Numbered from the stretch's first letter, positions 14,601 through 55,701 are shown. The stretch is DNA of 64,000 nucleotides from an uncultured Candidatus Saccharibacteria bacterium (GCA_964479005.1 CAYZJA010000002.1:32001-96000); one strand, 5' to 3'. Numbers and translations: made by a program. Notes: generated from the sequence alone by a model not told the origin.

Positions 14601-15164
14601 ACTGCCTGTATTTGGTATAAAAAATATATGGACATTCTGTCTTGTATGCTCTGGCACACTCATATCCTGAATCAAATGTAAAATATGGCCGAGGGCCTTA
14701 AAGGCTTCAACTCGATTTCCTTTTACATACTTATAAATAGCCTGTTGCCAAGTAAAATTAGTCTTGGAAAAAACTGGACTTTTAGCTATTGGACCAATAA
14801 GAACTGAATAAATAGGATCGTAGACAGCTTGAGCAAAAGGGTTCTGCCCCCACTCTTTAGCAGTTAAAACCGGAAAAAGATGTTCTACTCCCCCAAACTG
14901 CCAAGTTTTATTAAAAACTGGATCATAAAAATGATTTACGCTTCTAACACCATCATCCTCATCAATGCTGCCTTGCATTAAAAGTTGTTTTTCTGTTTCA
15001 TTCAAGGCATGATTTAAAAAGTGTTGATTATAAAAGTCAACAGTAATTTCTGTTAAATTTGGATGTGTAGTTTTAGCATCGTAAGCAAGAACAGAAAAAT
15101 TAGGTAAAAAGAATAAACATACAAATAAACATACAAATAAAAAACTGGTGGGGCTTTTTCTCAT
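11652..15164 (-). CDS. Giant secreted/surface protein: PLC/P1-nuclease-superfamily-like N-domain, Thr-rich linkers, two lamin-tail (LTD) domains
   Basis: 1170 aa with a signal peptide. HILHLIQDMSVPEH resembles the zinc-ligand motif HxxGDxxxPxH of S1/P1 nuclease and phospholipase C. Poly-Thr/TTTTK linkers are present. Two LTD-like segments are EWIELKN...ISNWQL and EFIELYNPNDNDVDLTDWYI. Confidence 0.6.
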   Translation of the reverse strand: MRKSPTSFLFVCLFVCLFFLPNFSVLAYDAKTTHPNLTEITVDFYNQHFLNHALNETEKQLLMQGSIDEDDGVRSVNHFYDPVFNKTWQFGGVEHLFPVLTAKEWGQNPFAQAVYDPIYSVLIGPIAKSPVFSKTNFTWQQAIYKYVKGNRVEAFKALGHILHLIQDMSVPEHTRQNVHIFFIPNTGSPYESYTAKNNKDFYEQTRKSIENLKPVRRVNLDEYFDEIALYSNNYFYSPDTISGSKYKLPQPVFSEVPELINGKLIFYVLGEDENHNIFHLALILKNNIGWRLTSGPTIFSLEDDQVLQEYWERLSKRVVLTGAGVIDLFFQEVARAKSKPDFISKNEKNVLTAMISGLSDFINDIFQRNPEYVLIEETEIPHSPPDASDTSLSFSPTTLSQITTTTTIKYQPSTTKSPTITKQTTTTTKLFTTTTKLTVTTTKPTTTTTKLTTTTTLSPNFCSFNTTQATLRNKIIISELAWMGTQNSANDEWIELKNISSHEIDISNWQLIDKKEQIKIVFEQGSKIAAHGFYLLERTDDSSIPFVIADHIYAGVLNNADEGLRLFDSNCQLQDEVLADLDWSAGNNSQKRTMERGNNLSWHTYGGVEQNGILGTPKRENSQPVIISSGGGGGSTPSSQTTTTTTTTTTTTTTLPPIVFPKILINEIKIAGLDSEAKTLTKDEFIELYNPNDNDVDLTDWYIQKKTQNSQEFSSLVPAHLLAEKVISSFGYLLITHSSSTYTEIADVLVSNYSLTNNNTIILKNPNREIVDKIGYGEANDCEVNCAINPEPSQSIQRKYIDGNFLDSDNNADDFEIQNCPSPKSFSSNDCFIPTTTTPAAPTIPYITEFSWHPFEKDSPKIVIDFRINSYPFIPSTNHTSNIFTAMVFYLHSDFDDPSANFGIPTGYLGGKNDWELYSNTPGLLLSYPNYVGDTQKVGSIIFTADEKMAAGSAVPRKLSYRIDKLSSDNHFVVDVIGTTHGQGLNFTPDQYITIGYYGYAKNIRSYLKLIAYDDTKFYFYSSNYYHQPTNVKNFEVECDNEDCNNLIFSWTPASDEDPKDILKYDIHYVFAKQGDGSENNDLTRQSWRYSQSQNVLGEPTLNAQENKLRLQVSIDDLRYIEKKRLPGVSLDVFFGIKAQDSEGLKSEIPKIIFINIPPIVPEVTTTTIP

Positions 15165-28672: not shown

Positions 28673-30055
28673 TCATTTATTATACAACATTTCTTTCAAA
28701 ATTGTTATTTCCTGACAAAAAACAGGGTTTTTTTCAATTTCAGAAGATATCTTTTTATATGCATGAATAACGGTGGTATGGTCACGATTACCTAATTTTT
28801 CAGCAATACTGGTATAGGAATAATGCAACTCTTCGCGCAAAAGATACATTACTATTTGCCTTGGTTTTACTAATTCTTTCTTCCTAGAACGACCCAAAAC
28901 ATCGTCTTCTTTAAGGTCATAGAAAGAAACTATTTTTTTAATCACTTCTTTTGGTGAAATATATTTATTTGATTTATTTAAAATGAGTGACAATATTCTT
29001 TTGGTTTCTTCTAAAGAGATTGGACTATTTTTAAGGCGCGCATGCGCGATGACTCTGTTTAATGCTCCCTCTAATTCCCTGATATTCTTTGGGATTGCCT
29101 CAGCTATATACTTAAGAACATCATTGTTTATAAGATGGGATACATCCTGACTTTTGTTTTCTAAAATAGCTAATCTTGTTTCAAAATCAGGATAACCAAT
29201 ATCAGCTATCATACCCCCTTCAAATCTAGACCTTAACCGTTCCTCAATAGACGGAATAGATTTTGGCGGGCGATCAGAGGTAAAAACAATTTGTTTATCT
29301 TTTTCATAGAGCGTATTAAACGTATGGAAAAGTTCTTCTTGTGTTTTATCTTTTCCGGCGACAAACTGGACATCGTCAATTAAAAGAAGATCAAGATTTC
29401 GGAAACTTTTTTTAAACTCTGTCATTTTTTGATTACGGATAGCATTAACTAAATCATCTGTAAATTTTTCCGAGGTAGCGTATAAAATTTTCAATTTCTT
29501 TTTTTTTCTCTTTAGTTCATTACCAATAGCTTGTAGAAGATGTGTTTTTCCTAATCCAACGCCGCCATAGATAAAAAGAGGATTATATTTTTTTCCTAGA
29601 TTTTCTATTACTGCCAAAGATGCTGCATTAGCTAATTCATTATTGGTTCCGACAACAAAGTTTTCAAAAAGGTATTTTGGATTAAGATTAGTTTCAGGGT
29701 CAATATTAAATTCTAATTGTTCATCTAAAACTGACGATTTTGAAATAGTTGAAGAACGTTTTGTTTTTTTAGTCTCTATTTTTTTTAAAGAATCTTTATT
29801 AGTAGTAACCAGATATTCAATCTTTTTAATTTTAGGATTTAAGCTAAAAAGAGCGTGTAGAATTTGTTTATGGTATTTATTTTCAAGCCATTCTTTTGTA
29901 AAACTAGATGGGACACCTATAAAGACCGTTCCTTCTTTAATATCTAAAATAAAAGCATCTTTTAACCATGTTAGGTAATTAGCTTTAGAAATATTCAATT
30001 TAATCTCTCCCAAAGCTGCTTCCCAAAGTTCTTTGATATCCATAATTGAAATCAC
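28673..30055 (-). CDS. dnaA: Chromosomal replication initiator DnaA
   Basis: 460 aa with the AAA+ motif (GGVGLGKTHLLQAIGNE), sensor motifs and a C-terminal HTH DNA-binding domain. Confidence 0.95.
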   Translation of the reverse strand: MISIMDIKELWEAALGEIKLNISKANYLTWLKDAFILDIKEGTVFIGVPSSFTKEWLENKYHKQILHALFSLNPKIKKIEYLVTTNKDSLKKIETKKTKRSSTISKSSVLDEQLEFNIDPETNLNPKYLFENFVVGTNNELANAASLAVIENLGKKYNPLFIYGGVGLGKTHLLQAIGNELKRKKKKLKILYATSEKFTDDLVNAIRNQKMTEFKKSFRNLDLLLIDDVQFVAGKDKTQEELFHTFNTLYEKDKQIVFTSDRPPKSIPSIEERLRSRFEGGMIADIGYPDFETRLAILENKSQDVSHLINNDVLKYIAEAIPKNIRELEGALNRVIAHARLKNSPISLEETKRILSLILNKSNKYISPKEVIKKIVSFYDLKEDDVLGRSRKKELVKPRQIVMYLLREELHYSYTSIAEKLGNRDHTTVIHAYKKISSEIEKNPVFCQEITILKEMLYNK

Positions 30056-30261
30056 AATATTTACATTCTATAGTATAACAACCTTTCGTTTTACTCAAGA
30101 ACGTTGAAATTGAAATGTACGCATTTCCATTATAAAAATAAAATTTAGTTTCTGCAAGAAAATCATTCTCTTTTGGGGATAAACTGTTGATAATCAGTGG
30201 GTTTGATATTTAACGTATATTTTGGTATGCTGTTCTAGATTTAAATTTAATATTTATTGCT
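30056..30261. promoter_or_regulatory. Divergent dnaA / rpmH promoter region with tandem DnaA boxes
   Basis: TGGGGATAA at 30174-30182 and TGTTGATAA at 30185-30193 are each 8/9 to TGTGGATAA and sit 2 bp apart. Confidence 0.55.
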
Positions 30262-30396
30262 ATGTCGATTACTTATCAGCCAAAAAAGAAAAAGAGATCA
30301 CGCGCCCATGGATTTTTAAAAAGAATGTCTTCTAAGGGAGGAAAAAAAGTTATTAGTCAACGGAGGCAAAAAGGAAGAAAAAAATTAACTCCTTAA
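30262..30396 (+). CDS. rpmH: 50S ribosomal protein L34 (below the ORF-track size cutoff)
   Basis: Translates as [44 protein letters not shown] (44 aa), the classic L34 sequence. It lies directly upstream of rnpA. Confidence 0.9.
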
Positions 30397-30399
30397 GTA

Positions 30400-30735
30400 A
30401 TGCTTAAAAAGAAAAACAGAATTACATCTTCTGTTGCTTTTAAAGAGATTTTTACTAAAGGTAATGTAAAAGAAAACGAGTGTTTTAAAATTATCTTCAA
30501 AAAGAGTGATTTAGACTATCCGAGGTATGGAATTATTGTTAAGGCTCAAAATAGTAAGTCAGCTGTACAAAGGAATGCTTTAAAAAGAAGAATTAGAGAT
30601 ATACTTAGAAATTCTTTGTTGGTTTTTCCAAAAGGATTTGATGTTGTGATTGTTACGAAGAGAAATTGTTTAAATATGAATTTCTCAAAGCTGAAAGAAT
30701 CTCTTGGTGAATTATTATTAAAACTATTTAAATAA
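30400..30735 (+). CDS. rnpA: Ribonuclease P protein component
   Basis: 111 aa basic protein in the canonical rpmH-rnpA-yidC-jag arrangement. Confidence 0.8.
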   Translation: MLKKKNRITSSVAFKEIFTKGNVKENECFKIIFKKSDLDYPRYGIIVKAQNSKSAVQRNALKRRIRDILRNSLLVFPKGFDVVIVTKRNCLNMNFSKLKESLGELLLKLFK

Positions 30736-30741
30736 ATTATT

Positions 30742-31434
30742 ATGAATGTTTTTGAATTATTGATTTTTCAACCGCTATATAATCTTTTAGCCTTACTCTC
30801 CAATCTAACAATGGGTGATTTAGGGTGGGCTGTTTTAATTTTGGCGGCAATAATTCGTTTTATTATTTGGCCTTGGTATAAAAAAGCCATGGGGGATCAA
30901 AGAAAAATGGCAAAATTACAGCCGAAAATTAAAGAAATTCAAAAGAAGTTTAAGAAGGAACCAATAAAGGCCAATCAGGAAGTAATGAAAATTTTTAAGG
31001 AAGAAAAAATCAATCCTGGCAATTCTTTCTTTTTTATCATTTTCCAATTGGCTATTTTTATTTCCCTTTATATATTTTTTAGGCAAGCCATAGTCAATGA
31101 TTGGGCTCCTTATCTTTATAGCTTTGTTAAATTGCCAGAACAAATAAATTATTTATTCCTTGGCATTATTGATCTTAAAGCTCCAAGCCTTGCTCTCGCG
31201 ATTATTTCAGCTTGCTTGAACTCCTTTTTGACTTTTATCCAACCAAGTTCAGGCCAGAACAAAGCAATGTTACTTGGCTTCCCTTTTATAATTTTATTTT
31301 TCTACCAGAGATTTCCCGCGATTGTTATTTTGTATTGGATAGGATTTACTTTAGTAAATCTTTTGCAGGAATATATGACTAAGAAAGAAACCATTCTCCC
31401 AAATCAAGCATCGGAAGTAAAGGCTATCAGTTAA
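30742..31434 (+). CDS. yidC: Membrane protein insertase YidC (short form)
   Basis: 230 aa polytopic membrane protein. The assignment rests on synteny with rnpA/jag plus YidC/Oxa1-like TM topology. Confidence 0.75.
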   Translation: MNVFELLIFQPLYNLLALLSNLTMGDLGWAVLILAAIIRFIIWPWYKKAMGDQRKMAKLQPKIKEIQKKFKKEPIKANQEVMKIFKEEKINPGNSFFFIIFQLAIFISLYIFFRQAIVNDWAPYLYSFVKLPEQINYLFLGIIDLKAPSLALAIISACLNSFLTFIQPSSGQNKAMLLGFPFIILFFYQRFPAIVILYWIGFTLVNLLQEYMTKKETILPNQASEVKAIS

Positions 31435-31508
31435 TTTTGAGCAAAGCCACGTTTAACGTGGCAAAGTGAGAAACAAGGTTCTGTGAACAAAGTAAACAGG
31501 TTCTTATT

Positions 31509-31982
31509 ATGGAAACATTAAAGGTAAAATCTTTTTTAGAAGAATTGCTTACAATTGTTGGTTTTGTAAATTTTGAGATTAGTACACAAGAAAGTCCCCA
31601 GGACAAACTTGTTCAGTTTTCAATTAAAACTGATTCAGAAATTAATTATAGTGGTCTTTTGATAGGACGTGATGGAGAAAACCTGCAAGCATTAGAATAT
31701 TTATTAAATATCTTTTCAAAAAAATACTCCAATGATTATCCTTGGAGAATTATTTTAGATATTAATAATTATCGGGCAATACAGGAAGAAAAATTAAGAG
31801 AATTTGCTAAAAAAGCGGCTCGTCACGTATCTTTATCAAAAAAAGAAATAGAATTACCGCCCATGAGGGCGCGAGATAGAAGAATTATCCATTTAGAGAT
31901 TGCTTTAAGAAGTGATGTATTCACAGAAAGTGTTGGGGAAAGGAAAGAGAGGCATATTATAATAAAACCGCAAGAAAAATAG
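31509..31982 (+). CDS. jag: Jag/KhpB-like RNA-binding protein (KH + R3H domains)
   Basis: 157 aa with a KH-like GRDGENLQALEYLLN segment and an R3H motif (RARDRRIIHLEIA). Confidence 0.8.
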   Translation: METLKVKSFLEELLTIVGFVNFEISTQESPQDKLVQFSIKTDSEINYSGLLIGRDGENLQALEYLLNIFSKKYSNDYPWRIILDINNYRAIQEEKLREFAKKAARHVSLSKKEIELPPMRARDRRIIHLEIALRSDVFTESVGERKERHIIIKPQEK

Positions 31983-32000
31983 ATTTTCTAATATTTGATT

Positions 32001-32714
32001 TTAAGTAGCACCATACCAGCATCCTTCAGTAATACAATAATCACTGCCTGGATATGAACCATATCCAGTTGCTTCCATTAAAGATACATGGAGATGATTT
32101 CCCTCATCTAATACTGCCAATCCAGCTTTATTAAATTCTGCTATTATTTTTTTATTATCTTCAGAACTATTTGAAACTGAATCTATATCTACACAAGTGC
32201 CATCAAGATGACAATCATCGGCTCTCCTTGGCGTATAACTTGTACTATTGCATTCAGCGTCAATACAGGCATCATTTACCCACCACTTCGGATTTATATC
32301 TTTTAATAGAAGTAATTTATTTGCTAACGTGGAATCTAAATAAGCTTCTGATTGACCAAATGTATTATCATTTATTGGAATCCCCATATCTCTTATATTA
32401 ACTAAATTTTTTGATATAGCCTGATCTTCTGTAGTAACTTCTAGGGTAACTTCTGATGAGGGCAGGGTTATTGTATCAGAAGAACCTTTTAGAATATCAG
32501 GATTGATAGTATAAAGAATAATATAAAAAGCAAACAATAAAAGAAGTCCAATAATGGCGCCTGTGATTCTTTCTTGGGCGTCTTTTTGTTGGGCAGTATT
32601 ACCTCCAGAAGTAAGGTATTGAAAACCAGCATAAACAATCATGGCAAAAGCTAAAATTCCAGCGAGGCGAAAAGCCCACCAAATAAAAGTCTCGATTAAG
32701 CTTATTGGAGTCAT
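32001..32714 (-). CDS. T4SS pilin-like (VirB2-analog, two TM helices) protein fused to a C-terminal Cys-rich domain with HxD / HxH metallopeptidase-like motifs
   Basis: 237 aa. The N-terminus (AGILAFAMIVYAGFQYLTSGGNTAQQKDAQERITGAIIGLLLLFAFYII) fits the Gram-positive/CPR T4SS pilin pattern. The C-terminal ~140 aa contain CHLDGTC and NHLHVS. A LAS-type fold is a guess. Confidence 0.5.
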   Translation of the reverse strand: MTPISLIETFIWWAFRLAGILAFAMIVYAGFQYLTSGGNTAQQKDAQERITGAIIGLLLLFAFYIILYTINPDILKGSSDTITLPSSEVTLEVTTEDQAISKNLVNIRDMGIPINDNTFGQSEAYLDSTLANKLLLLKDINPKWWVNDACIDAECNSTSYTPRRADDCHLDGTCVDIDSVSNSSEDNKKIIAEFNKAGLAVLDEGNHLHVSLMEATGYGSYPGSDYCITEGCWYGAT

Positions 32715-32723
32715 AAGTTTTTA

Positions 32724-33419
32724 TTAAAATTGAGTAACATCGCCAGGATTAACTAGTCCAGGAATTCCTATTTCCCATTGGTAAGATTCAAAAATAGGAT
32801 ATTCAATTGACTGTATGTTTGGTGGAGCTGGTGGTTCTGGCAATGTTTGCAGAAATGTCTGCAGAATTTCATTTAAAATTATTGGGCATATTTGGGTAAT
32901 AAGAATAGCCATTGAGGTGCCAACTGTTGTGCCAAAAACCATTATATTTGCAGTTGCATCTGAAAGTGATTTACAGATATGCTCAATATCTACATGTTTA
33001 AGTAATAAATCTAAAATCCAACTTTTGACAAGTCCTGAAATATCATTATTTCCGTTTATTGCGCTTATAACCAATAATTTTAAGTCTTCTGGAATTACTT
33101 CATTATTCTGTATGATATTTATGAGTTCGTCTTTAACAGTATCTGTAATGTTCCCGTCATTTTGTATTGAGTTTATGAGATATGGTTTTAAATCTTCTGG
33201 AATCTCTTGACTGTTCTGTATTATGTTTATAAGTTCATTTTGAGTAAGTTCTGCTAATTCTGCGCCATCATTAAGGTTTGTTATTGTATCTAAGACCCCT
33301 TGTGGATCCAAAAAAGCCTGAGTTTGTATTGGGACTAAAAATAAACCACCTAATCCCAAATTTAATATCAAAACAATTAATACTATAGCCTTTGTTTTTT
33401 TGAAGATATTTTTAAGCAT
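32724..33419 (-). CDS. Secreted protein with three internal ~25-aa repeats (ELINIIQN..IPEDLK)
   Basis: 231 aa with a signal peptide. Repeats are visible in the translation and the C-terminus is hydrophobic. Confidence 0.4.
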   Translation of the reverse strand: MLKNIFKKTKAIVLIVLILNLGLGGLFLVPIQTQAFLDPQGVLDTITNLNDGAELAELTQNELINIIQNSQEIPEDLKPYLINSIQNDGNITDTVKDELINIIQNNEVIPEDLKLLVISAINGNNDISGLVKSWILDLLLKHVDIEHICKSLSDATANIMVFGTTVGTSMAILITQICPIILNEILQTFLQTLPEPPAPPNIQSIEYPIFESYQWEIGIPGLVNPGDVTQF

Positions 33420-33441
33420 ATTATTTTTTATTTAAAAATGA

Positions 33442-33810
33442 TTAGACTTTTTTTGGCGATGTTGCAGACGTAAGTTTAGTTACAGACGCAAGCTTAGCTG
33501 TTTTTTTTATTGCTTTTTTAACAGGTGCTGGTGATTTTTGGAGTGCATAGACAAGTATAACAGTTAAAGTGGCAATGGGCAAAATACTGGCAAATGGTAT
33601 AAGATCTAATGCTTGACCAATAAAAATCCATGTACCTCTTATTCCGCTGATAAGTGTAATAACAAAGATATAAATGACGAGAGGCAGGACAATAACCCAA
33701 ACAAAGAGGTTAATTCCAGGAATAAATCCCAAAAAGATTTCTATAACATCTTTAATAATGGATGTTATAAGCAAGAATAAAAATATTGTTAAGCTCATTT
33801 TATTTTTCAT
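33442..33810 (-). CDS. Small polytopic membrane protein (T4SS-cluster associated)
   Basis: 122 aa with 3-4 TM helices and a K-rich C-terminus. Confidence 0.4.
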   Translation of the reverse strand: MKNKMSLTIFLFLLITSIIKDVIEIFLGFIPGINLFVWVIVLPLVIYIFVITLISGIRGTWIFIGQALDLIPFASILPIATLTVILVYALQKSPAPVKKAIKKTAKLASVTKLTSATSPKKV

Positions 33811-33820
33811 AGAATAATAT

Positions 33821-35611
33821 TTATTCTTTTTTGAACTCCTCTTTAGCTTTCCTAATATCTATAAGTTGAGCTGGGTTTGAGGTAATAATTTGGTCTTCAG
33901 CATAAGAAGCGATAATCTGAATGGCAGCATGTTTGTCTTCTGCAAAAAAGAGACCTGTGCCAACAGAAGCTTGCAAAAGGATGGTTTTTTCTTGTTCTGT
34001 AAGATTTAAGGCTTTGCCTATGATATCAATATTCGCAGGCGACTGTCTTAGTAAAAGGGCTAAAGCAGAGTTGGTAATTAATGGTTTTCCATAAGGTGAT
34101 TTTAAAGCGTCTTCTATGTCCTGTGTAATAAAGGTTACTCCCATATAATACTTTCGCGCTCTTTTAACTAAACCAAAAAGAAAAGACGCGCTTTCTTCGT
34201 GGCGTAACAACCACCATCCTTCATCAATTATTACAACCCTTTTTCTTAAATCCTTTTTTATCATTGTCCATATGTAATTTAATACTACATACATGGCAAT
34301 AGGCCTAAGTTCTTCTTCTAATTCTCTTACGCCAAAGATAACTAAACGATTGTTAATATTAATATTCGATGGTTGATTAAGGAAGCCAGCATAGCTTCCT
34401 TTGGTGAATTTATAAAGTTTTGCAGCTAAATCTTCGCCTCCCTCGGTATTTTTAAGAACATTCTCTAGATCTTCCATTAATGGCAGATTTTTTTTCTCAA
34501 CCATATTTTCAGGAAAAATATCCCGACTTGCGTATGTTTGTACAATGGCTCTATCTAGCATAAGTTCTTCCTGAGGAGAAAGACCTTTAAGCATTAACTT
34601 AATTAGGCCAATAAGATTTAAAATATGGTTGCGAAAAACTTCTTCGCCAGTTTCCTCTTTTTTTACTGTAGGAAGTTCAAATGGATTAATATTATCATCA
34701 GAAGCAACAGATATTTTAAAGTAGCTTCCGCCAATTGAATCAGCCAAGTATTCATACTCATTTTCCGGATCAATAATCAATACATTAGTTCCTAGTAATA
34801 ATGAACGAAGGATTTCTAATTTTATAGCATAACTTTTTCCTGCGCCAGCTTGGGCAAAAACTATCATATTTGCGTTTGGTAGAACAAAGCGGTCAAAAAT
34901 AATCAAGCTATTATTATGCAGATTAACGCCATAAAGGATTCCTTTGTTTTCTGAAAGGTCTAAAGAAGAAAAAGGGAAAAGGGTTGAAGCCGGCTGTGAA
35001 TTTAAGGGAGTAGTTAATAATAATCTATCTATTCCCAATGGTAAGGAAGATTCCATTCCTTCGAATTCTCTAAAGACAGTTGGTTTTGCGTAAATTAACT
35101 GCTGCTCTAATACATTTTTGATTTTACTTTCTATTTTTATAAGTTCCTCCTTGTCATTGGCAAAAAAAGTGATATAAACACCTACTTCAAAAAGTTTTTC
35201 ACTACCTTGTTGGATAGTATCTCTTAGTTTTTCAATATTATTTAAAGCAGCTTCTAATAAGGGGTTACGAACTAATCCTCTATCTGCTTCAATGCTTAAT
35301 TGAGCTTGAATTTCTGCAGATTTTTTTCTTAAATTTCTTAAAACCTTATTAATATTAAGAGGGTGGAAAAAGATTGAAATATTAAAAGATTCATCCAAAT
35401 TAATAATTGAGGAAAACCAATTAGAGGCTAAATAATTTGGATAAGTTAGGATAAAAAGAGTTGAACAATATTTATTTCCTAATTTGAGAAAGTTAGTATT
35501 AATTTCTAATCCAGCAGGGGAAATTAAGTCCTGAAGAGTAGAAACAGCCTGGGATTGCGCTACCACTTGCGGGTTTTTAGGTTTTCTTTTAAATAAGTTT
35601 GGAAAACGCAT
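33821..35611 (-). CDS. VirB4/TrbE/CagE-family conjugal-transfer-type ATPase (C-terminal ATPase portion)
   Basis: 596 aa with Walker A (AQAGAGKS) and Walker B (VVIIDEGWW). It is followed in the cluster by PrgI-like and VirB6-like proteins. Confidence 0.75.
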   Translation of the reverse strand: MRFPNLFKRKPKNPQVVAQSQAVSTLQDLISPAGLEINTNFLKLGNKYCSTLFILTYPNYLASNWFSSIINLDESFNISIFFHPLNINKVLRNLRKKSAEIQAQLSIEADRGLVRNPLLEAALNNIEKLRDTIQQGSEKLFEVGVYITFFANDKEELIKIESKIKNVLEQQLIYAKPTVFREFEGMESSLPLGIDRLLLTTPLNSQPASTLFPFSSLDLSENKGILYGVNLHNNSLIIFDRFVLPNANMIVFAQAGAGKSYAIKLEILRSLLLGTNVLIIDPENEYEYLADSIGGSYFKISVASDDNINPFELPTVKKEETGEEVFRNHILNLIGLIKLMLKGLSPQEELMLDRAIVQTYASRDIFPENMVEKKNLPLMEDLENVLKNTEGGEDLAAKLYKFTKGSYAGFLNQPSNININNRLVIFGVRELEEELRPIAMYVVLNYIWTMIKKDLRKRVVIIDEGWWLLRHEESASFLFGLVKRARKYYMGVTFITQDIEDALKSPYGKPLITNSALALLLRQSPANIDIIGKALNLTEQEKTILLQASVGTGLFFAEDKHAAIQIIASYAEDQIITSNPAQLIDIRKAKEEFKKE

Positions 35612-35614
35612 ATT

Positions 35615-36295
35615 TTATTTATTAAATTCTTCTGGAATATTTATGGATTCTCTTTCAAAAGCTTCTGGGTTGTATGAATTGAAAAATAATTCAATCAGTT
35701 CTTTAGTAGTTAATGGTCGTGATTGTAATCCCATTCTAGTTAAATTCGTAATGATATTATTTTGTCTGATTATTAATTGTTGATAATGCTGACGAAAGCT
35801 TTCATCAGAAAGAGGGATTGTGGCGGAAAATGCCTGGTGCCTTAAATTAAGCAATGTTTTATAAGCTTCTAATATTTGGCTTAACGCGGTCTTTGGTTTA
35901 ATCATAATGGGGTCATAGGGCACTATTACATAGAATTTCTTTTTCATAATATTGTTTCCAGTAACAAGTCCTTTAATGAATGTATAATAATCCTCTCCTT
36001 GCAGTTTAAGCAGATTATTTGTTTCTTGACCAATCTTTTCCTGAAGAAAATTTAAATATGATTCAATATTAACGCGCCTAGAATGAGCTACAACTTGCAA
36101 TGGAAAATCTAAGTTATTTATAAGATTACGCCAGCTCATTAACACGGAAGATTGTTCTTCTTCTGATTTTAAATCAAAATTTATACCTGATACTTCTAAA
36201 ACCGAACGGAGCGAACCGTTTTTAAGAATAACTACCCCTTTTCTAATTTGTTGAAGGGAAATGAGTGACTGGCTACTGAAAGTTTCTTTAGGCAT
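35615..36295 (-). CDS. Hypothetical protein, likely the detached N-terminal domain of VirB4
   Basis: 226 aa ending 3 nt before the ATPase ORF start and in the same frame (TAA-AAT-ATG). The combined length of 822 aa is about that of a full VirB4. Confidence 0.45.
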   Translation of the reverse strand: MPKETFSSQSLISLQQIRKGVVILKNGSLRSVLEVSGINFDLKSEEEQSSVLMSWRNLINNLDFPLQVVAHSRRVNIESYLNFLQEKIGQETNNLLKLQGEDYYTFIKGLVTGNNIMKKKFYVIVPYDPIMIKPKTALSQILEAYKTLLNLRHQAFSATIPLSDESFRQHYQQLIIRQNNIITNLTRMGLQSRPLTTKELIELFFNSYNPEAFERESINIPEEFNK

Positions 36296-36712
36296 CTATT
36301 TATCTAATATATCGGTTAATTGTTTAAGTGTTTTTTTGTCCAATTGTTTTTTAATCTGTGTTTTTACTGTGGGTTTAGGCTTTTGAGAAACAGAATAAGA
36401 TACTTTCGAAAAAGTTTTTTCTTTTTTCCATAGATAGTATTTTGGAAGCCAAAAATGTCTGATTGCGGCAATGGCGAGTGTATAAATAGGAACACTATGG
36501 ATTTTCCCAAATGCGAGAGAAAAACCGACTGGAGCGAGAATCATTGCTAAAATTAACCAAAGCCATGGTTTTAAAACAGAAAAAAGTAAAAGGAGGAGTC
36601 CTCCAAAAGATAATAAAATCCATAATTGGGTAAAGGTAATCCAACCCATTAATTTTGTTTCCTCTTTTATAAATTGAGGCACTTGATAAGTCATATTTTT
36701 AAGCTTTACCAA
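36296..36712 (-). CDS. PrgI-family / VirB3-like small membrane protein
   Basis: 138 aa with two TM helices, positioned immediately upstream of the VirB4 homolog as in Gram-positive T4SS loci. Confidence 0.55.
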   Translation of the reverse strand: MVKLKNMTYQVPQFIKEETKLMGWITFTQLWILLSFGGLLLLLFSVLKPWLWLILAMILAPVGFSLAFGKIHSVPIYTLAIAAIRHFWLPKYYLWKKEKTFSKVSYSVSQKPKPTVKTQIKKQLDKKTLKQLTDILDK

Positions 36713-37589
36713 AAGGACTTTTTTTCTGATATTTTTTATAAGGAATAGGCTTTTGGATAGTAGGCGTTTCTTCTTTTTTTTCTTTTTCCTTTTTTAATTT
36801 AACGTCAAGGATATATGGTTTTTCTTTTTTAGTTTTCACAAAAACTTCTTCATCCTCAAATTCTTTTCCTTCACCGCTTAAAATTTTAGAGGGCGTTAAT
36901 TCTCCTATTCTTTTCTTTTCTAATATTTCCTTTTCTTCTCTTTTTGCTTCTTTGGGCGATGGGGGTTTTAAAGAGACTTTTTTCATTTCTTCAACAATCT
37001 TCGGTTGGACGGGTTTTCTCTGCATTGCCGCCAATAGCTTTGCTCTGATTTTTTCTTGTTGTTCTGAAGAAATTTTTGGAGCAACAACTTTTTTTAATTC
37101 CTCTATTTTACTAACTGGTTTTTCCACTTTTACTTCAGATGGTTCAGGCAAAGAATATTCAGGAATAATTGGTTCAGAAGGCATTTGTTCTGTAATGGTT
37201 TGTTCAATTTTTTCTTTCGTAATAGGCTTTATCTTTGAGGGCTTTTGCGGAATTCTTTGCTCTAAAGGTTGAGGTTTGTATTGGTTCAATTCTTTCTCAA
37301 ATATTTTAAAGATTTTTCCTTCAATTACTTTGTTAACAATTTGAGCTGCTACTGGAGAAATATTAATTCTTCTTTCTAATTCATTTTTGAATTGATCTTT
37401 AGATAATTGAAAAGATAAAATTTCTGTTATGATGTCCATAACACTAGAAAATTTTTCAGATGAAACTTTGCCCAAATTTAAAGCATCATCTATAATTGCC
37501 CCCATCTTGTCAGAGGCCAAAAAGTCCTGAATACGAAATGGAAGTTTATTGAATGATTTTAAGAATTTGTTTTTGTTCGTTTCTTCCAT
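36699..37589 (-). CDS. K/E/P-rich low-complexity hypothetical protein (T4SS-cluster associated)
   Basis: 296 aa with a structured N-terminal 100 aa followed by a KEP-rich tail. Confidence 0.4.
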   Translation of the reverse strand: MEETNKNKFLKSFNKLPFRIQDFLASDKMGAIIDDALNLGKVSSEKFSSVMDIITEILSFQLSKDQFKNELERRINISPVAAQIVNKVIEGKIFKIFEKELNQYKPQPLEQRIPQKPSKIKPITKEKIEQTITEQMPSEPIIPEYSLPEPSEVKVEKPVSKIEELKKVVAPKISSEQQEKIRAKLLAAMQRKPVQPKIVEEMKKVSLKPPSPKEAKREEKEILEKKRIGELTPSKILSGEGKEFEDEEVFVKTKKEKPYILDVKLKKEKEKKEETPTIQKPIPYKKYQKKSPFGKA

Positions 37590-37603
37590 ATTCCTCAGTA
37601 AGA

Positions 37604-39820
37604 TTAAAAAGGCAAAAATTCTGCCAAGAAACGATTTTTGTCGTATTTTCTTCTTTTGAGCTCTTGTTTAACAGTTTCTTCATTTCCGTGGATTTTGTCT
37701 TGGACAGATTTTACAAGTTTTTGTGCCCATTTTGTTTGTTTTTCAGTATCATTTGTTGACCTAAGCATAGCAGCAAAATTTCCAGCTGGAAGATTTTTAT
37801 CTAAAAGAGTATAGAAAAATCGATTGGTATGCTGTGGTCCTTTTTCTTCTAATCTTTCAAGAATGTTTTCCCAATTACCTAATTTTATATCATCAGGCGA
37901 AGATTTTAGCAGTTGTTCTGCTATAAGATTAGTGATAACACGATTTTTAGCTTCATCACGAGAGACTCCATGGAATCTTCGCTTCATCTGTTCTATTGCT
38001 TTGTCCATATCTTCAGGTTTTGTAAAGTATTTAGCATGAAGTTCTGGATGAATTTTTTTAATTCCTGAAACATTTAAATTAGGTTGATTTTTAGCTATTT
38101 CGATGAACTTGCTATCTTTTTTATAATCCAGTGATTCTTTTCCTATTAATGTGTTAACACCCAAAGCCATTCTTCCCCCATCTGTCTTATGTGCTTCCAT
38201 ATCAACTCTAATTTGATCTGGGCTTCTTCCTTTATAATCTTCTTCAATTTGTTTTAGTTCAGCTTCGCGAACTTTCCTAGGCTGCCTACCCATCCAAACC
38301 CCTATGTCATGTGTAGGCGCAAATTTGCTGTCTTCTAATTTTTTCTGAGCTTTTCTCCATGGTTCTGAGCTTACGGCTCCTTTTAATGCTTTATGACCAA
38401 GGAAGGCGCCAGCTACTGCTCCAGCCTTAGTAGTTTGTTTCATAACTAATTGAGATGCTGCTCCTCCGCTTTGGAGGGAGAAAATTAATCCTCCTACCAA
38501 AAACATAGAGAATAAAATCATTTGCACTATTGTTGAAGTTACAGAGTCTGCGCCGATTGATATTTGACTCATTCCACTCATTGCTATTATAGCAATATAC
38601 AGTATAAAACTAAAAATAACAGGAAAAAAACACCATTTTATAAATTGTTGCCACCACATTTTCCAATATTTTTCTGTATCTGGGAAAATCCAACAAGCAA
38701 AAACGATAGGGGATAAACCTAGAAGCATAATTAAAATGAATGCTCTGAAAATTATTGTCAAGAAAATAGCAAGCAAAGCAATAACAGCAAAACCTCCAAC
38801 CAATATCATTATAAAGCTGATTATGAAAAAGTTACCAAAACGTAGGCTATAACTCTCTACTTCCGTTGCTGCTGTTGTAGTTGCTGTACCAGTATCTCCA
38901 AGACCTAGAATTTTTGGCGTTTCATATTTATCCTCGCCAAATAAAACAGGAGGATCAAATGTTTTTGTATCCGCTGATTGTTGTTCTTGTTCAATATAAC
39001 TAAAACTTTCCATTATACGAGGGGCAAGGCTTTCATTTTTTTCTTGAGCAATGTTTAGAAAATATACTGAGAGATAATTAGAAGTATCTACTATGATTCC
39101 TGATATAACTAAACTGAAGTTTACTAACAAAGCAACAAGTATTAATTTCCAAAGGATTTGTTTCCAAGCATATTTTTTATAACCAAGAATAGTTGCGATA
39201 GCAATACCTATTAACCCTAAAACTAAAAGTGCGTTAACTAAATTGCGCATCATTTCCCATATTTGTATAACACCATCATTTGTAGCAAATCCGCCATAAG
39301 TTTTCGGATTTAACGCTTTTAATATCCAGCCTATTTCTAAATCTATTAATCCAGCAAACATTTTACCCAAACCTTCAAGTATGGCTTTTGTAGTAACACA
39401 CCACATGTCTGCAATCACTACTTTTATTTCGCATCCAAGCGCATCTAACCCCCAACCATACCTCGCTGCGCATTCCTGCATTCCCTCTTCAAAGTTCTTC
39501 TTACAAAGACCTTCTGGCCTTTCTTCTTGAAGTCTGGTTTTTATTGTCTGTGCTCCATGTCTTATCTCTGTTGTCCCAGGTTCAGGATTTGGAATACAAC
39601 ATTGCTCACTACCAAATCCAGGACAACTCAAAGAAGATTCAATGTAATCTTCTAAATCACTACATTTTGTTGTCTTTTTAACAACACATGTACCTCCTGC
39701 TTCTTCGCAGTCAGACCCAGCTCTTACTTGTGAAATATCAGTTTTTAAAACAGGGCTGATTAGTAATGTAAGAATAACTATGCTAAAAACCCCAATTTTT
39801 AATATATTTTTTGTTTTCAT
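37604..39820 (-). CDS. VirB6/TrbL-like polytopic membrane protein with N-terminal Cys-rich extracellular domain and C-terminal soluble domain
   Basis: 738 aa. A signal peptide is followed by a Cys-rich region with about 8 Cys, at least 6 TM helices in the middle and a soluble C-terminal 250 aa. Confidence 0.5.
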   Translation of the reverse strand: MKTKNILKIGVFSIVILTLLISPVLKTDISQVRAGSDCEEAGGTCVVKKTTKCSDLEDYIESSLSCPGFGSEQCCIPNPEPGTTEIRHGAQTIKTRLQEERPEGLCKKNFEEGMQECAARYGWGLDALGCEIKVVIADMWCVTTKAILEGLGKMFAGLIDLEIGWILKALNPKTYGGFATNDGVIQIWEMMRNLVNALLVLGLIGIAIATILGYKKYAWKQILWKLILVALLVNFSLVISGIIVDTSNYLSVYFLNIAQEKNESLAPRIMESFSYIEQEQQSADTKTFDPPVLFGEDKYETPKILGLGDTGTATTTAATEVESYSLRFGNFFIISFIMILVGGFAVIALLAIFLTIIFRAFILIMLLGLSPIVFACWIFPDTEKYWKMWWQQFIKWCFFPVIFSFILYIAIIAMSGMSQISIGADSVTSTIVQMILFSMFLVGGLIFSLQSGGAASQLVMKQTTKAGAVAGAFLGHKALKGAVSSEPWRKAQKKLEDSKFAPTHDIGVWMGRQPRKVREAELKQIEEDYKGRSPDQIRVDMEAHKTDGGRMALGVNTLIGKESLDYKKDSKFIEIAKNQPNLNVSGIKKIHPELHAKYFTKPEDMDKAIEQMKRRFHGVSRDEAKNRVITNLIAEQLLKSSPDDIKLGNWENILERLEEKGPQHTNRFFYTLLDKNLPAGNFAAMLRSTNDTEKQTKWAQKLVKSVQDKIHGNEETVKQELKRRKYDKNRFLAEFLPF

Positions 39821-39853
39821 AATATTAAATTAATGTTTAATATATTTTCTTTA

Positions 39854-40669
39854 TTATACAATATTTTTGATTAACAAGGAAGAAAGAGAAATCCATTCTT
39901 TTATGGAAAGATTTTGCGCCCTTGTATTTAGCGGCATGTTTAATTGTATGAATATTTTTTGGAGAACGTCTCTTTTTATACTGAGATTTTTGGAGAGATT
40001 ATTTATAAGCAATTTTCTTGGTTGCTTAAAACCAGCTTTTATAACTTTGAAAAAAGATTGCGGAGTTTGCCCGCCTAAATTTTGTTTCAAAATTTTAGCG
40101 GGTAAAGGAGTTATTTTAATAACAGCAGAGTCTACTTTAGGTTCTGGATAAAAAGCGGTTCTTGGAACATAGCAAATGATTTCTGGTTTTGCATAAAATT
40201 GTACAGAAGCGGATAGAAGATTCATTTTTGGTGGTTGAGCTATTATTCTTTCAGCCACCTCTTTTTGAATCATTAAAACTATTAATTTAGGTTTAATTGG
40301 ATTTTCTAAAAGTAAACGCAAAAGTCGCGAAGTTAAATAATAAGGAATATTGCCGATGGCCTTGTATTCAGTATTCAGTATTCTGTATTCAGTGTTTTGG
40401 AGGAAGTCTCGAATATCTCCTTGGATAATTTTTAAATTTAATTTGTCTTTAAAGTAATCTTTCAGGAATTTTACTAATTCTGGGTCTTTTTCAACAGCGA
40501 TTATTTCAGCACCAGTTTTCAAAAAAGCTTGAGTTAAAATGCCCTTTCCTGGTCCAATTTCTAAAATTTGATCTTTGGAGTTGATATCTGCTGCTTGGAT
40601 AATCTTTTGTATAGTCTCCTCGTCCTTAAGGAAAACTTGCCCTAATTTTTTTTGTTTTCTTGTTATCAT
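39854..40669 (-). CDS. rsmA: 16S rRNA (adenine1518/1519-N6)-dimethyltransferase
   Basis: 271 aa with LGQVFL...ILEIGPGKGILT and SAM-MTase motifs. It contains a small in-frame tandem duplication (NTEYRILNTEYKA). Confidence 0.9.
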   Translation of the reverse strand: MITRKQKKLGQVFLKDEETIQKIIQAADINSKDQILEIGPGKGILTQAFLKTGAEIIAVEKDPELVKFLKDYFKDKLNLKIIQGDIRDFLQNTEYRILNTEYKAIGNIPYYLTSRLLRLLLENPIKPKLIVLMIQKEVAERIIAQPPKMNLLSASVQFYAKPEIICYVPRTAFYPEPKVDSAVIKITPLPAKILKQNLGGQTPQSFFKVIKAGFKQPRKLLINNLSKNLSIKRDVLQKIFIQLNMPLNTRAQNLSIKEWISLSSLLIKNIV

Positions 40670-54534: not shown

Positions 54535-55701
54535 ATGCCCAAAGTAAAATGTAGAGTTTGCAAAAAGATATTCTATATCAAATCCAATTGGCTTAAAAGA
54601 GGATGGGGAAAATATTGTTCGAGGAAATGTCAGTACAAATCCCAATTGAAAGGAAAATTTGTGGTTTGCGCCTATTGCGGTAGAAGGGTATATCGATCAC
54701 TTGCTGAATTGCGCAGAAAATCTAAGGCAGGAGTTTATTTTTGTAATTTATCCTGTCATTGCGCTTGGAAAAATAAACAAAGGAAAAGTAAGGGAAGATT
54801 TAAATTACAAAATTTATGGGGACCGTGGTGTAATAGTAGCACTAGGACCTGTGGCGTCCTCGGTACGGATGCAAATTCCGTCGGTCCCCCATTTTTCTTT
54901 CTAAAATTCTTAAAGCCCAAGAAGAAAAAAAATAATCTTTTATTTCTTAAGCGGCCACCAAAGAAAATTCTTTATCATTTTTATTGGAAAAAGAATTATA
55001 CCCAAACAGAGATAGCTAAAATTTTTAATGCCACCCACACTAGCGTGAAAAGATGGTTTAATTATTATAAAATCATGGTGAAGTACCGAACTCTATCTTG
55101 TGGCCATAATCCCAATATTTTAAGAAATTTAAAATTAGGTCGTACAGATAAAGCTATTAGAAAATCGGCAGAAGCAAGAAGAATTTATTCAAAAGAAAAA
55201 CTTATTGAAAAAATAAAAGAATTTGTACAAAAAGAAGAAAGAATTCCTACAAAGAACGAATTTATTAATAATTCCTCTTATCCAGATTATGTCACTTACA
55301 GGCATTATTTTGGCACTTGGAATAATGCCATCAAGACAGCGGGCTACAAGCCAAATGAACAATGGTTTGCCTCAGGACATTTATTTGCTAAAGATGGGCA
55401 CAAATGTAATTCAATTTCAGAAATAATCATTGACGATTGGTTTTTTGAAAATGATATTTCTCATACGAGAGAGTGTTTATACCCAGAAGGACGATATCGC
55501 TGTGATTTTATGGTTGGCAATACTTTTATTGAATTTTTTGGTTTATTTAATGCTTCCATTGTTAACCCAAGTTATATTGAAATCGTTAAAAGAAAAAAAG
55601 AAATATGTAAGAAATTTAATATTGTCCTCATTGAACTCTATGAGAAGGATCTTTATAAATTAGATCAATCCTTGGGAGCAAAGATTGGATTAAAAGTATA
55701 A
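54535..55701 (+). CDS. Composite ORF: N-terminal double Zn-ribbon, HTH, HNH-repeat (homing-endonuclease-associated) and DUF559/Vsr-like PD-(D/E)xK nuclease region
   Basis: 388 aa. The CxxC..CxxxC repeat occurs twice. The other elements are an HTH (TQTEIAKIFNATHTSVKRW), an HNH-repeat-like motif (YVTYRHYFGTWNNAIKTAGY) and a C-terminal S.SE....DDW...N..H..E...P.G.YR.DF.V......IEF.G. The ORF reads through an embedded tRNA-His-like gene at 54818-54891 and a poly-A tract, so the true CDS boundaries are uncertain and it may be a fragmented gene. Confidence 0.4.
   Translation: MPKVKCRVCKKIFYIKSNWLKRGWGKYCSRKCQYKSQLKGKFVVCAYCGRRVYRSLAELRRKSKAGVYFCNLSCHCAWKNKQRKSKGRFKLQNLWGPWCNSSTRTCGVLGTDANSVGPPFFFLKFLKPKKKKNNLLFLKRPPKKILYHFYWKKNYTQTEIAKIFNATHTSVKRWFNYYKIMVKYRTLSCGHNPNILRNLKLGRTDKAIRKSAEARRIYSKEKLIEKIKEFVQKEERIPTKNEFINNSSYPDYVTYRHYFGTWNNAIKTAGYKPNEQWFASGHLFAKDGHKCNSISEIIIDDWFFENDISHTRECLYPEGRYRCDFMVGNTFIEFFGLFNASIVNPSYIEIVKRKKEICKKFNIVLIELYEKDLYKLDQSLGAKIGLKV
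54818..54891 (+). tRNA. tRNA-His-like gene (anticodon GTG) with encoded G-1:C73
   Basis: Hand-folded. G-1 is followed by the acceptor GGGACCG/CGGTCCC and discriminator C. The D-arm is GTGT..GCAC, the anticodon stem-loop is AGGAC-CTGTGGC-GTCCT and the T-arm is ACGGA-TGCAAAT-TCCGT. It is oriented opposite to the neighbouring tRNAs and lies inside the predicted ORF. Confidence 0.6.

What the first reader, a model, noticed from the sequence alone, without database searches (positions are those of the whole stretch)
33821..36295. VirB4 homolog split by a single in-frame TAA
ORF 35615-36295 (226 aa) and ORF 33821-35611 (596 aa, Walker A/B) are separated by TAA-AAT-ATG in the same frame. Together they would give an ~822-aa VirB4-length protein. 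This could be a genuinely bipartite VirB4, a recent nonsense mutation (pseudogene), stop-codon read-through or a sequencing error.
Basis: partly seen in the sequence, partly recalled or inferred. Interest (0 to 1): 0.5.

Follow-up and report, generated by a model that had tools for sequence, protein, structure and literature searches.

The report
Two-gene VirB4: TrsD-like plus ATPase
The "split" VirB4 is the normal, conserved two-gene form of this secretion ATPase in Patescibacteria, a small TrsD-like N-terminal protein followed by a short VirB4 ATPase; it is already described in the literature and is not a broken gene.

Summary
On the minus strand a 226-aa ORF (36295..35615) ends in TAA. After one AAT codon, a 596-aa Walker A/B ORF (35611..33821) starts in the same frame. 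The two are collinear parts of VirB4: the first matches the N-terminus of VirB4 profiles and folds like the TrwK/VirB4 N-terminal region, and the second matches the remainder.

The split is not a lesion.
- All listed homologues of the 226-aa protein, down to 32% identity, are stand-alone proteins except one fused form.
- 119 of the 120 best homologues of the ATPase are also short.
- Both genes are under strong purifying selection (dN/dS 0.03-0.09).
- The identical protein occurs in independent assemblies.
- In relatives the gap after the stop is 2, 4 or 5 nt, so the genes sit in different frames. The in-frame arrangement here is a coincidence.

The break falls at the same profile position as the TrsD|TrsE boundary of staphylococcal plasmid pSK41. 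A 2025 paper (PMC12102498) already reports TrsD homologues next to virB4 as the most abundant T4SS component of Patescibacteria. This is known and ordinary; interest is low.

The parts
35615..36295 (-). Gene A: stand-alone VirB4 N-terminal module (TrsD-like protein, 226 aa, stop TAA included)
   Evidence: ORF. NCBIfam hits to the N-termini of VirB4 profiles and to TrsD/TraD. Precomputed Pfam hits PF26593 TraC-like and PF27097 VirB4_TrbE_N on the identical protein. AF2 model with pLDDT 88, whose best PDB matches are TrwK/VirB4.
35612..35617 (-). Junction: TAA stop of gene A (35617-35615) plus AAT spacer (35614-35612), directly before the ATG of gene B
   Evidence: Relatives have TAA+tt, TAA+aaaa or TAA+caaat at this position, in other frames.
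33821..35611 (-). Gene B: short VirB4 ATPase (596 aa), holding the rest of the N-terminal region plus the P-loop C-terminal domain
   Evidence: NCBIfam conju_CD1110, 356 bits against a cutoff of 325, profile positions 183-729 of 752. Pfam P-loop_TraG, AAA_10 and CagE_TrbE_VirB. PDB 4AG5 VirB4 C-terminal domain, E 2.6e-37.
34829..34855 (-). Walker A motif (AQAGAGKSY, residues 253-261 of B)
   Evidence: the G-x-G-K-S residues are invariant in alignment A5.
34214..34237 (-). Walker B motif (VVIIDEGW, residues 459-466 of B)
   Evidence: D689 and E690 of the concatenated numbering are invariant.
36296..36712 (-). PrgI/VirB3-like small membrane protein. It is 138 aa from the TTG at 36712, or 132 aa from the ATG at 36694 as called in relatives. 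Its TAG stop abuts the ATG of gene A.
   Evidence: Pfam PrgI, E 3.5e-5, 24.7 bits, just under the cutoff of 27. A 132-aa gene sits at the same position in all related loci. Two hydrophobic helices are visible in the translation.
37604..39820 (-). TrbL/VirB6-like polytopic membrane protein (738 aa)
   Evidence: Pfam TrbL, E 1.6e-5. TrbL_3 is recorded on the orthologues in L003 and L013.
32001..32714 (-). T4SS pilin-like protein (237 aa)
   Evidence: Pfam T4SS_pilin PF18895, 32.1 bits against a cutoff of 26.6. It holds the same position in relatives.
36699..37589 (-). Conserved cluster gene (296 aa, rich in Lys, Glu and Pro), no family match
   Evidence: A syntenic gene of 285-361 aa is present in relatives.
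32724..33810 (-). Two conserved cluster genes downstream of gene B (122 aa membrane protein at 33442-33810; 231 aa at 32724-33419), no family match
   Evidence: syntenic in relatives.

Best explanation
The two ORFs are two real, separately translated genes that together make up one VirB4, the signature ATPase of type IV secretion systems. Gene A (226 aa) is a TrsD-like protein, equivalent to roughly the first 180 profile positions of a full-length VirB4. Gene B (596 aa) is a short VirB4 that carries the rest of the N-terminal region and the Walker A/B ATPase domain. This two-gene layout is the standard one in the chromosomal T4SS of Patescibacteria (here a Paceibacteria-like genome). It is shared with the TrsD/TrsE pair of the pGO1/pSK41 subclass of monoderm (MPF_FATA) conjugation systems, and the break falls at the same position. 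Inferred, not shown: A binds B non-covalently to rebuild the VirB4 N-terminal domain; the complex docks on the adjacent PrgI/VirB3-like membrane protein; and the 0-5 nt stop-start spacing gives coupled, roughly equimolar translation. The shared reading frame in this strain has no function.
For: (1) Collinear homology. A matches CD1110-VirB4 profile positions 3-119, TIGR00929 positions 19-174 and TrsD positions 12-106. B matches CD1110 positions 183-729 above the curated cutoff.
(3) Conservation of the split. All 120 best homologues of A are 229 aa or shorter, none fused, at 64-100% identity. Among cluster representatives at 50% identity, 143 match A at E<=1e-30, and only one of the best 150 (P0126, 797 aa) is fused. 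119 of the 120 best homologues of B are 496-607 aa and one (P0386, 788 aa) is fused.
(4) Junctions in relatives. TAA+aaaa+ATG gives frame +1, already at 84% identity. TAA+tt+ATG and TAA+caaat+ATG give frame +2.
(5) Purifying selection. dN/dS is 0.05-0.09 for A and 0.03-0.07 for B.
(6) Independent assemblies. The identical 226-aa protein occurs on at least 8 contigs from different samples.
(7) Same break as pSK41. A residues 19-213 align with TrsD 45-220, and B residues 28-566 align with TrsE 36-617. TrsE and B both begin at CD1110 profile position 183. The same PrgI-like / TrsD-like / VirB4 trio occurs on Pontibacillus and Geobacillus plasmids.
(8) The two fused relatives match TIGR00929 as one stretch, positions 18-725, showing that A plus B equals one VirB4.
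(9) Literature. PMC12102498 reports 2,272 TrsD homologues in Patescibacteria, 1,664 of them next to virB4. It describes TrsD as remotely homologous to the VirB4 N-terminus and as essential in Ca. Southlakia epibionticum.
Against: No physical A-B interaction was shown. The AF2 model of concatenated A+B had low confidence (mean pLDDT 58, A part below 50), so it says nothing about docking. A scores only 38 bits on the NCBIfam TrsD model against a cutoff of 200, so it is a remote relative of staphylococcal TrsD rather than a member of that narrow subfamily. A had no hit in the local Pfam copy and none by sequence in the PDB. [quoted passage not shown]
Confidence: 0.92

Rival explanations
1. Recent nonsense mutation: a full-length virB4 was broken by a single TAA, and the locus is a pseudogene.
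For: The two ORFs share a frame and are separated by only one sense codon. Rare full-length fused relatives exist (P0126, P0386).
Against: The stop falls at the same place in every relative examined, from 96% down to 65% identity. Stand-alone homologues extend to 32% identity. dN/dS is below 0.1 for both halves. B has its own ATG, conserved in all relatives. In the fused relative the region around the break is a deletion-prone linker, not a simple sense codon.
Confidence: 0.01
2. Programmed stop-codon read-through or recoding of TAA makes a single 823-aa VirB4 from the two ORFs.
For: The junction is in frame in this strain and in relatives of at least 96% identity. Fused homologues exist, so a fusion product would probably be tolerated.
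Against: At 84%, 78% and 65-68% identity the genes lie in frames +1 or +2, so no read-through product is possible there. TAA is the dominant ordinary stop in the window (38 of 51 ORFs). No suppressor tRNA is among the 6 tRNAs found. No special sequence context is conserved after the stop.
Confidence: 0.03
3. Sequencing or assembly error introduced the stop.
For: None beyond the a priori possibility in metagenome assemblies.
Against: The identical 226-aa protein, with the same stop, is found on at least 8 contigs from different samples and assemblers: JGI 3300005782, SRR3091743, SRR3091719 and an NCBI contig of 551,616 bp. Dozens of variants at 92-97% identity have the same length.
Confidence: 0.01
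4. The 226-aa ORF is an unrelated accessory protein that merely sits upstream of a naturally short VirB4.
For: The local Pfam scan gave no significant hit. A PDB sequence search gave only chance hits.
Confidence: 0.02

Closest known systems
TrsD homologue + VirB4 of the Patescibacteria (CPR) chromosomal T4SS, as described by Quinonero-Coronel et al. 2025 (PMC12102498)
   Same: The gene set and order match: TrbL/VirB6-like, PrgI/VirB3-like, TrsD-like, VirB4 and VirB2-like pilin. The cluster is chromosomal and sits next to dnaA. No relaxase was found in the cluster or among the long ORFs of the window that were scanned. The TrsD-like gene lies directly upstream of virB4. Homologues are named Paceibacteria, Parcubacteria or Minisyncoccia by their sources.
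   Different: Nothing substantive. This window is one more instance. The paper does not discuss the junction or reading frame, nor, in the passages read, the rare fused forms.
TrsD/TraD + TrsE/TraE of staphylococcal conjugative plasmids pGO1/pSK41 (MPF_FATA subclass)
   Same: The same three-gene order: a small membrane protein (135 aa), TrsD (227 aa) and a VirB4-like ATPase (672 aa). A aligns nearly end to end with TrsD, and B with TrsE from its N-terminus. Both ATPases start at CD1110 profile position 183.
   Different: Identity is only 18% (A versus TrsD) and 25% (B versus TrsE). A scores 38 bits on the NCBIfam TrsD model, far under its cutoff of 200. pSK41 is a conjugative plasmid with a relaxase and a coupling protein, whereas this cluster is chromosomal and has neither next to it.
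Full-length VirB4 (TrwK of R388; CD1110-family VirB4 of Firmicutes; rare fused Patescibacteria forms P0126 and P0386)
   Same: The domain content and order are the same once A and B are joined. The ATPase core is homologous (PDB 4AG5 E 2.6e-37; TrwK E 1.5e-7). The N-terminal fold is shared.
   Different: It is one polypeptide of about 750-820 aa instead of two. In the fused relative P0126 the region corresponding to A's last 12 or so residues and B's first 11 or so is deleted.
VirB3-VirB4 fusions (for example the Mbov_0397 family of Mycoplasma ICEs, NF045975, 894-position profile)
   Same: The three modules occur in the same order. The PrgI-like ORF matches profile positions 15-124 weakly (E 0.013), A matches 102-233 and B matches 292-893.
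   Different: There all three modules form one protein; here they are three separate genes. This shows that the module boundaries are evolutionarily flexible.

Membership tests
VirB4 family ATPase (gene B) | Score above the curated cutoff of a VirB4 family model | tested here: met
   NCBIfam NF045971 (VirB4-like conjugal transfer ATPase, CD1110 family): 356.2 bits against a cutoff of 325.
VirB4 family ATPase (gene B) | Walker A and Walker B motifs in a P-loop C-terminal domain homologous to solved VirB4 C-terminal domains | tested here: met
   GAGKS at residues 256-260 and VVIIDEGW at 459-466. PDB 4AG5 E 2.6e-37 and TrwK 7O41 E 1.5e-7. Pfam P-loop_TraG 86.7 bits.
VirB4 family ATPase (gene B) | Complete N-terminal domain on the same polypeptide | tested here: not met
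   B starts at profile position 183 of 752. Positions 3-119 are matched by the separate gene A. The family member here is therefore the A+B pair, not B alone.
TrsD/TraD family (gene A) | Score above the NCBIfam NF041427 cutoff | tested here: not met
   38.3 bits against a cutoff of 200, E 1.2e-9. pSK41 TrsD itself scores 227.6 bits. A is a remote homologue, not a member of the narrow staphylococcal subfamily.
TrsD/TraD family (gene A) | A protein of about 200-230 aa homologous to the N-terminal part of VirB4 | tested here: met
   226 aa. Hits to the N-terminal positions of four VirB4 models. TrwK/VirB4 is the top structural hit. Pairwise E 4e-7 against pSK41 TrsD over A residues 19-213.
TrsD/TraD family (gene A) | Encoded directly upstream of a short VirB4-like ATPase and downstream of a VirB3/PrgI-like gene, with the break at the same position | tested here: met
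   Gene order in the window compared with pSK41. Both ATPases begin at CD1110 profile position 183.
Pfam PF26593 TraC-like / PF27097 VirB4_TrbE_N (gene A) | Significant match to the Pfam model | tested here: inconclusive
   Precomputed hits are recorded for the identical protein P0001 and its relatives (PF26593 is unmarked, meaning E<=1e-5). The local Pfam scan returned neither family; why was not established, though the local copy may lack these models.
Patescibacteria-type T4SS (MPF_FATA-related, PMC12102498) | Co-located VirB4, TrsD, PrgI/VirB3, VirB6 and VirB2-like pilin genes | tested here: met
   The PrgI and TrbL hits fall slightly below the Pfam cutoffs but are supported by synteny.
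Patescibacteria-type T4SS (MPF_FATA-related, PMC12102498) | Chromosomal location, often near dnaA, with no relaxase in the cluster | tested here: met
   dnaA at 28673-30055, yidC, jag and ksgA flank the cluster. The cumulative GC-skew minimum lies at 28-30 kb. No relaxase or T4CP domain was found in the 24 window ORFs scanned; small ORFs were not all scanned.
Patescibacteria-type T4SS (MPF_FATA-related, PMC12102498) | VirB4 falls inside the monophyletic Patescibacteria VirB4 clade | not tested
   No phylogeny was built. Source names of the nearest homologues (Paceibacterota, Parcubacteria, Minisyncoccia) are consistent with this.

The most novel reading that the evidence does not exclude
In this particular sublineage (the window and relatives of at least 96% identity) the junction happens to be in frame (TAA-AAT-ATG). 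Low-level natural read-through of TAA could therefore produce a minor fused, full-length VirB4 alongside the two separate proteins, giving a mixed population of ATPase subunits. More broadly, keeping the N-terminal module as a separate gene might let the cell set the ratio of membrane-docking module to ATPase independently.
Probability: 0.03. Interest if true: 0.3.

Novelty: already known. Interest (0 to 1): 0.1.

Why it matters
It matters mainly for annotation. This gene pair should not be flagged as a pseudogene, frameshift or assembly error, and the upstream "hypothetical protein" should be named a TrsD-like VirB4 N-terminal module. [quoted passage not shown] That is established literature, and this window adds only one more example. 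A small addition from this work is that the break maps to the same profile position in Patescibacteria and in pSK41, and that fused forms are rare (1 of 150 and 1 of 120 in the lists examined).

Tried and rejected
- The local Pfam scan of gene A gave no meaningful hit.
- A sequence search of A against the PDB gave only chance hits to ribosomal protein uS5, E about 1.
- The literature search for the phrase "split VirB4" returned nothing.
- The main text of Guglielmini et al. 2014 (PMC4027160) does not mention TrsD by name. The statement that TrsD resembles the VirB4 N-terminus is therefore cited from PMC12102498 only.
- I tried to model an A+B assembly.
- A mixed alignment of A homologues and B homologues was misaligned by MAFFT, with the A homologues smeared across all 822 columns, so I dropped it.
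- The accepted job used concatenated A+B with two fused relatives and B homologues only. It gave mean pLDDT 57.9 with the A part below 50. That is uninformative about docking, so I did not use it or run a fold search on it.
- Pseudogene, read-through, sequencing error and unrelated accessory protein were each considered and rejected, as set out under the rival explanations.

Full report
**Observation.** On the minus strand, ORF A runs 36295..35615 (226 aa) and ends in TAA at 35617-35615. AAT follows at 35614-35612. ORF B starts with ATG at 35611 and runs to 33821 (596 aa). The two share a reading frame. ORF B has a Walker A motif (GAGKS, residues 256-260) and a Walker B motif (VVIIDEGW, residues 459-466). 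The window has about 32% G+C and is densely coding. It uses all three stop codons, with TAA dominant (38 of 51 long ORFs). None of the 6 tRNAs found is a suppressor, so TAA is read as a stop.

**What the two ORFs are.** NCBIfam places the pieces collinearly on VirB4 models.
- ORF A matches positions 3-119 of the 752-position CD1110-type VirB4 model, positions 19-174 of TIGR00929 (VirB4_CagE) and positions 102-233 of the Mycoplasma VirB4 model. It also matches positions 12-106 of the 201-position TrsD/TraD model (E 1.2e-9).
- ORF B matches CD1110 positions 183-729 at 356 bits, above the curated cutoff of 325. It carries the Pfam domains P-loop_TraG, AAA_10 and CagE_TrbE_VirB.
- By sequence, B matches the solved VirB4 C-terminal domain 4AG5 (E 2.6e-37) and TrwK of R388.
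- ORF A had no hit in the local Pfam copy or by sequence in the PDB. The collection's precomputed annotation lists PF26593 (TraC-like) and PF27097 (VirB4_TrbE_N) for the identical protein.

A is the VirB4 N-terminal module.

**Is the split a lesion?** It is not, and five lines of evidence agree.
- *Homologues of A.* Of 493 homologues in the 90%-clustered collection, the 120 best (64-100% identity) are all 229 aa or shorter. 118 of them are 225-229 aa, and their sources name them Paceibacteria, Parcubacteria or Minisyncoccia. A full scan of 1.84 billion cluster representatives at 50% identity finds 2,155 matches (143 at E<=1e-30). Only one of the best 150, P0126 (797 aa, 41% identity to A), also contains the B part. 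The proteins of 280-443 aa in that list that were inspected (9 of them) are stand-alone A modules with low-complexity tails rich in Pro, Gln and Thr, and none of them matches B.
- *Homologues of B.* 119 of the 120 best (53-95% identity) are 496-607 aa. One, P0386 (788 aa, 56% identity), is fused.
- *Genomic context.* Seven distinct related junctions (12 of the 14 loci fetched) show the same pair of a 225-229 aa gene followed by a 594-597 aa gene. The spacers differ: TAA+aat+ATG (frame 0) in the window and in relatives of at least 96% identity; TAA+aaaa+ATG (frame +1) at 84% and 78% identity; TAA+tt+ATG and TAA+caaat+ATG (frame +2) at 65-68% identity. The shared frame in this window is therefore incidental, and read-through cannot be the conserved way of expressing B.
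- *Selection.* Nei-Gojobori dN/dS between the window and these relatives is 0.05-0.09 for A and 0.03-0.07 for B. Both genes are under strong purifying selection.
- *Independent assemblies.* The identical 226-aa protein is found on at least 8 contigs from independent samples and assemblers, which excludes a sequencing error.

**Where the break lies.** The two rare fused relatives match TIGR00929 as a single stretch, positions 18-725, confirming that A plus B equals one VirB4. In the alignment of concatenated A+B with P0126, the last 12 or so residues of A and the first 11 or so of B are simply absent from the fused protein. In the model of A, the C-terminal tail has low confidence (pLDDT about 64). 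The break therefore sits in a variable linker.

**Known precedent.** Staphylococcal plasmid pSK41, a close relative of pGO1, carries a 135-aa gene, then trsD (227 aa), then a 672-aa DUF87/VirB4-like gene (TrsE), in that order.
- A residues 19-213 align with TrsD residues 45-220 (18% identity, E 4e-7).
- B residues 28-566 align with TrsE residues 36-617 (25% identity, E 1e-32).
- TrsE, like B, starts at CD1110 profile position 183, so the break is at the same position in both systems.
- tblastn of A against plasmids finds stand-alone homologues on Firmicutes plasmids. In Pontibacillus and Geobacillus they sit between a small or PrgI-family gene and a VirB4-like ATPase.

The arrangement is also published for this very group. 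Quinonero-Coronel et al. [quoted passage not shown] They found 2,272 homologues in 2,221 assemblies, 1,664 of them associated with virB4. [quoted passage not shown] Southlakia epibionticum is listed as essential.

**Context in the window.** The pair sits in a minus-strand cluster. In order of transcription, the genes are:
- a TrbL/VirB6-like gene (37604-39820);
- a 296-aa gene;
- a PrgI/VirB3-like gene (36296-36694, or to 36712 from the TTG start), whose TAG stop abuts the ATG of A;
- gene A and gene B;
- a 122-aa gene and a 231-aa gene;
- a T4SS-pilin-like gene (32001-32714).

The cluster is flanked by ksgA on one side and by jag, yidC and dnaA on the other. The cumulative GC-skew minimum lies at 28-30 kb. 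This matches the dnaA-proximal chromosomal placement described in the same paper. Other large ORFs in the window are housekeeping genes, including ftsK, gyrB, pheT, a class A PBP and comM. No relaxase or coupling protein was seen among the ORFs scanned.

**Mechanism.** It is shown that there are two conserved, selected genes encoding the N-terminal module and the ATPase remainder of VirB4, packed tightly in an operon-like cluster. The rest is inferred from the homology to full-length VirB4 and from established knowledge of R388, where VirB3 binds the VirB4 N-terminal domain at the membrane.
- A probably associates non-covalently with B and with the PrgI/VirB3-like protein to form the membrane-docked ATPase that energises the T4SS or pilus.
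- Shine-Dalgarno motifs are almost absent upstream of genes in this window, and stop-start spacings in the cluster are 0-5 nt. B is therefore probably translated by coupling to A.

I could not test the A-B interaction. The only accepted AlphaFold job on concatenated A+B was of low confidence (mean pLDDT 58).

**Verdict.** The pseudogene, read-through and sequencing-error options are rejected. The feature is an ordinary instance of an already described architecture: TrsD-like plus VirB4 in the Patescibacteria T4SS, with the same break as TrsD/TrsE of pGO1/pSK41. Interest is low, and the practical value lies in correct annotation.

Noticed in passing
window 28673-40669: The whole T4SS-like cluster is chromosomal and lies directly beside dnaA (28673-30055), yidC and jag on one side and ksgA on the other. 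The cumulative GC-skew minimum at about 28-30 kb suggests oriC is here. This matches the dnaA-proximal placement reported for Patescibacteria T4SS (PMC12102498).
   Followed up: partly
window 54819-54890 (within ORF 54535-55701, + strand): ARAGORN calls a tRNA-His inside a mechanically listed 388-aa ORF. Most likely the real gene starts downstream of the tRNA, or the ORF is spurious at its 5' end.
   Followed up: no
whole window (upstream 25 nt of 51 long ORFs): Shine-Dalgarno-like tetramers are almost absent: only about 6 of 51 ORFs have any, and upstream regions are A/T-rich. Translation initiation in this organism seems largely independent of Shine-Dalgarno pairing.
   Followed up: partly
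proteins P0131, P0157, P0165, P0174, P0144, P0249, P0268, P0133, P0239: Some distant stand-alone TrsD-like proteins carry low-complexity extensions of 100-220 residues, rich in Pro, Gln, Thr and Ala, at the N- or C-terminus. Their role is unknown.
   Followed up: partly
L015:3851-4675 and L016:3845-4801 (Firmicutes plasmids): The TrsD-like proteins of the Pontibacillus and Geobacillus plasmids begin with a hydrophobic, transmembrane-like segment (MSDILIGILLAIVGGAGFIAYKWW, MAVIVGVLLFLLMVGGMGYAVYW). The Patescibacteria protein in the window has none. Their genes also overlap the downstream VirB4 gene by 11-14 nt instead of being spaced from it.
   Followed up: no
proteins P0126 (797 aa) and P0386 (788 aa): Rare fused TrsD-VirB4 forms exist among close relatives of the split genes (41% and 53% identity to A and B for P0126; 56% identity to B for P0386). 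Whether they are secondary fusions was not determined.
   Followed up: partly
window 36694-36712: The start of the PrgI/VirB3-like gene is ambiguous. The mechanical ORF starts at TTG 36712 (138 aa) and overlaps the upstream gene. Most relatives are called from the ATG equivalent to 36694 (132 aa), 4 nt after the upstream stop.
   Followed up: partly
window 11652-15164 and 56322-58448 (minus strand): There are large probable surface proteins: one of 1170 aa with Lamin Tail Domains and one of 708 aa with a DUF11 repeat.
   Followed up: no
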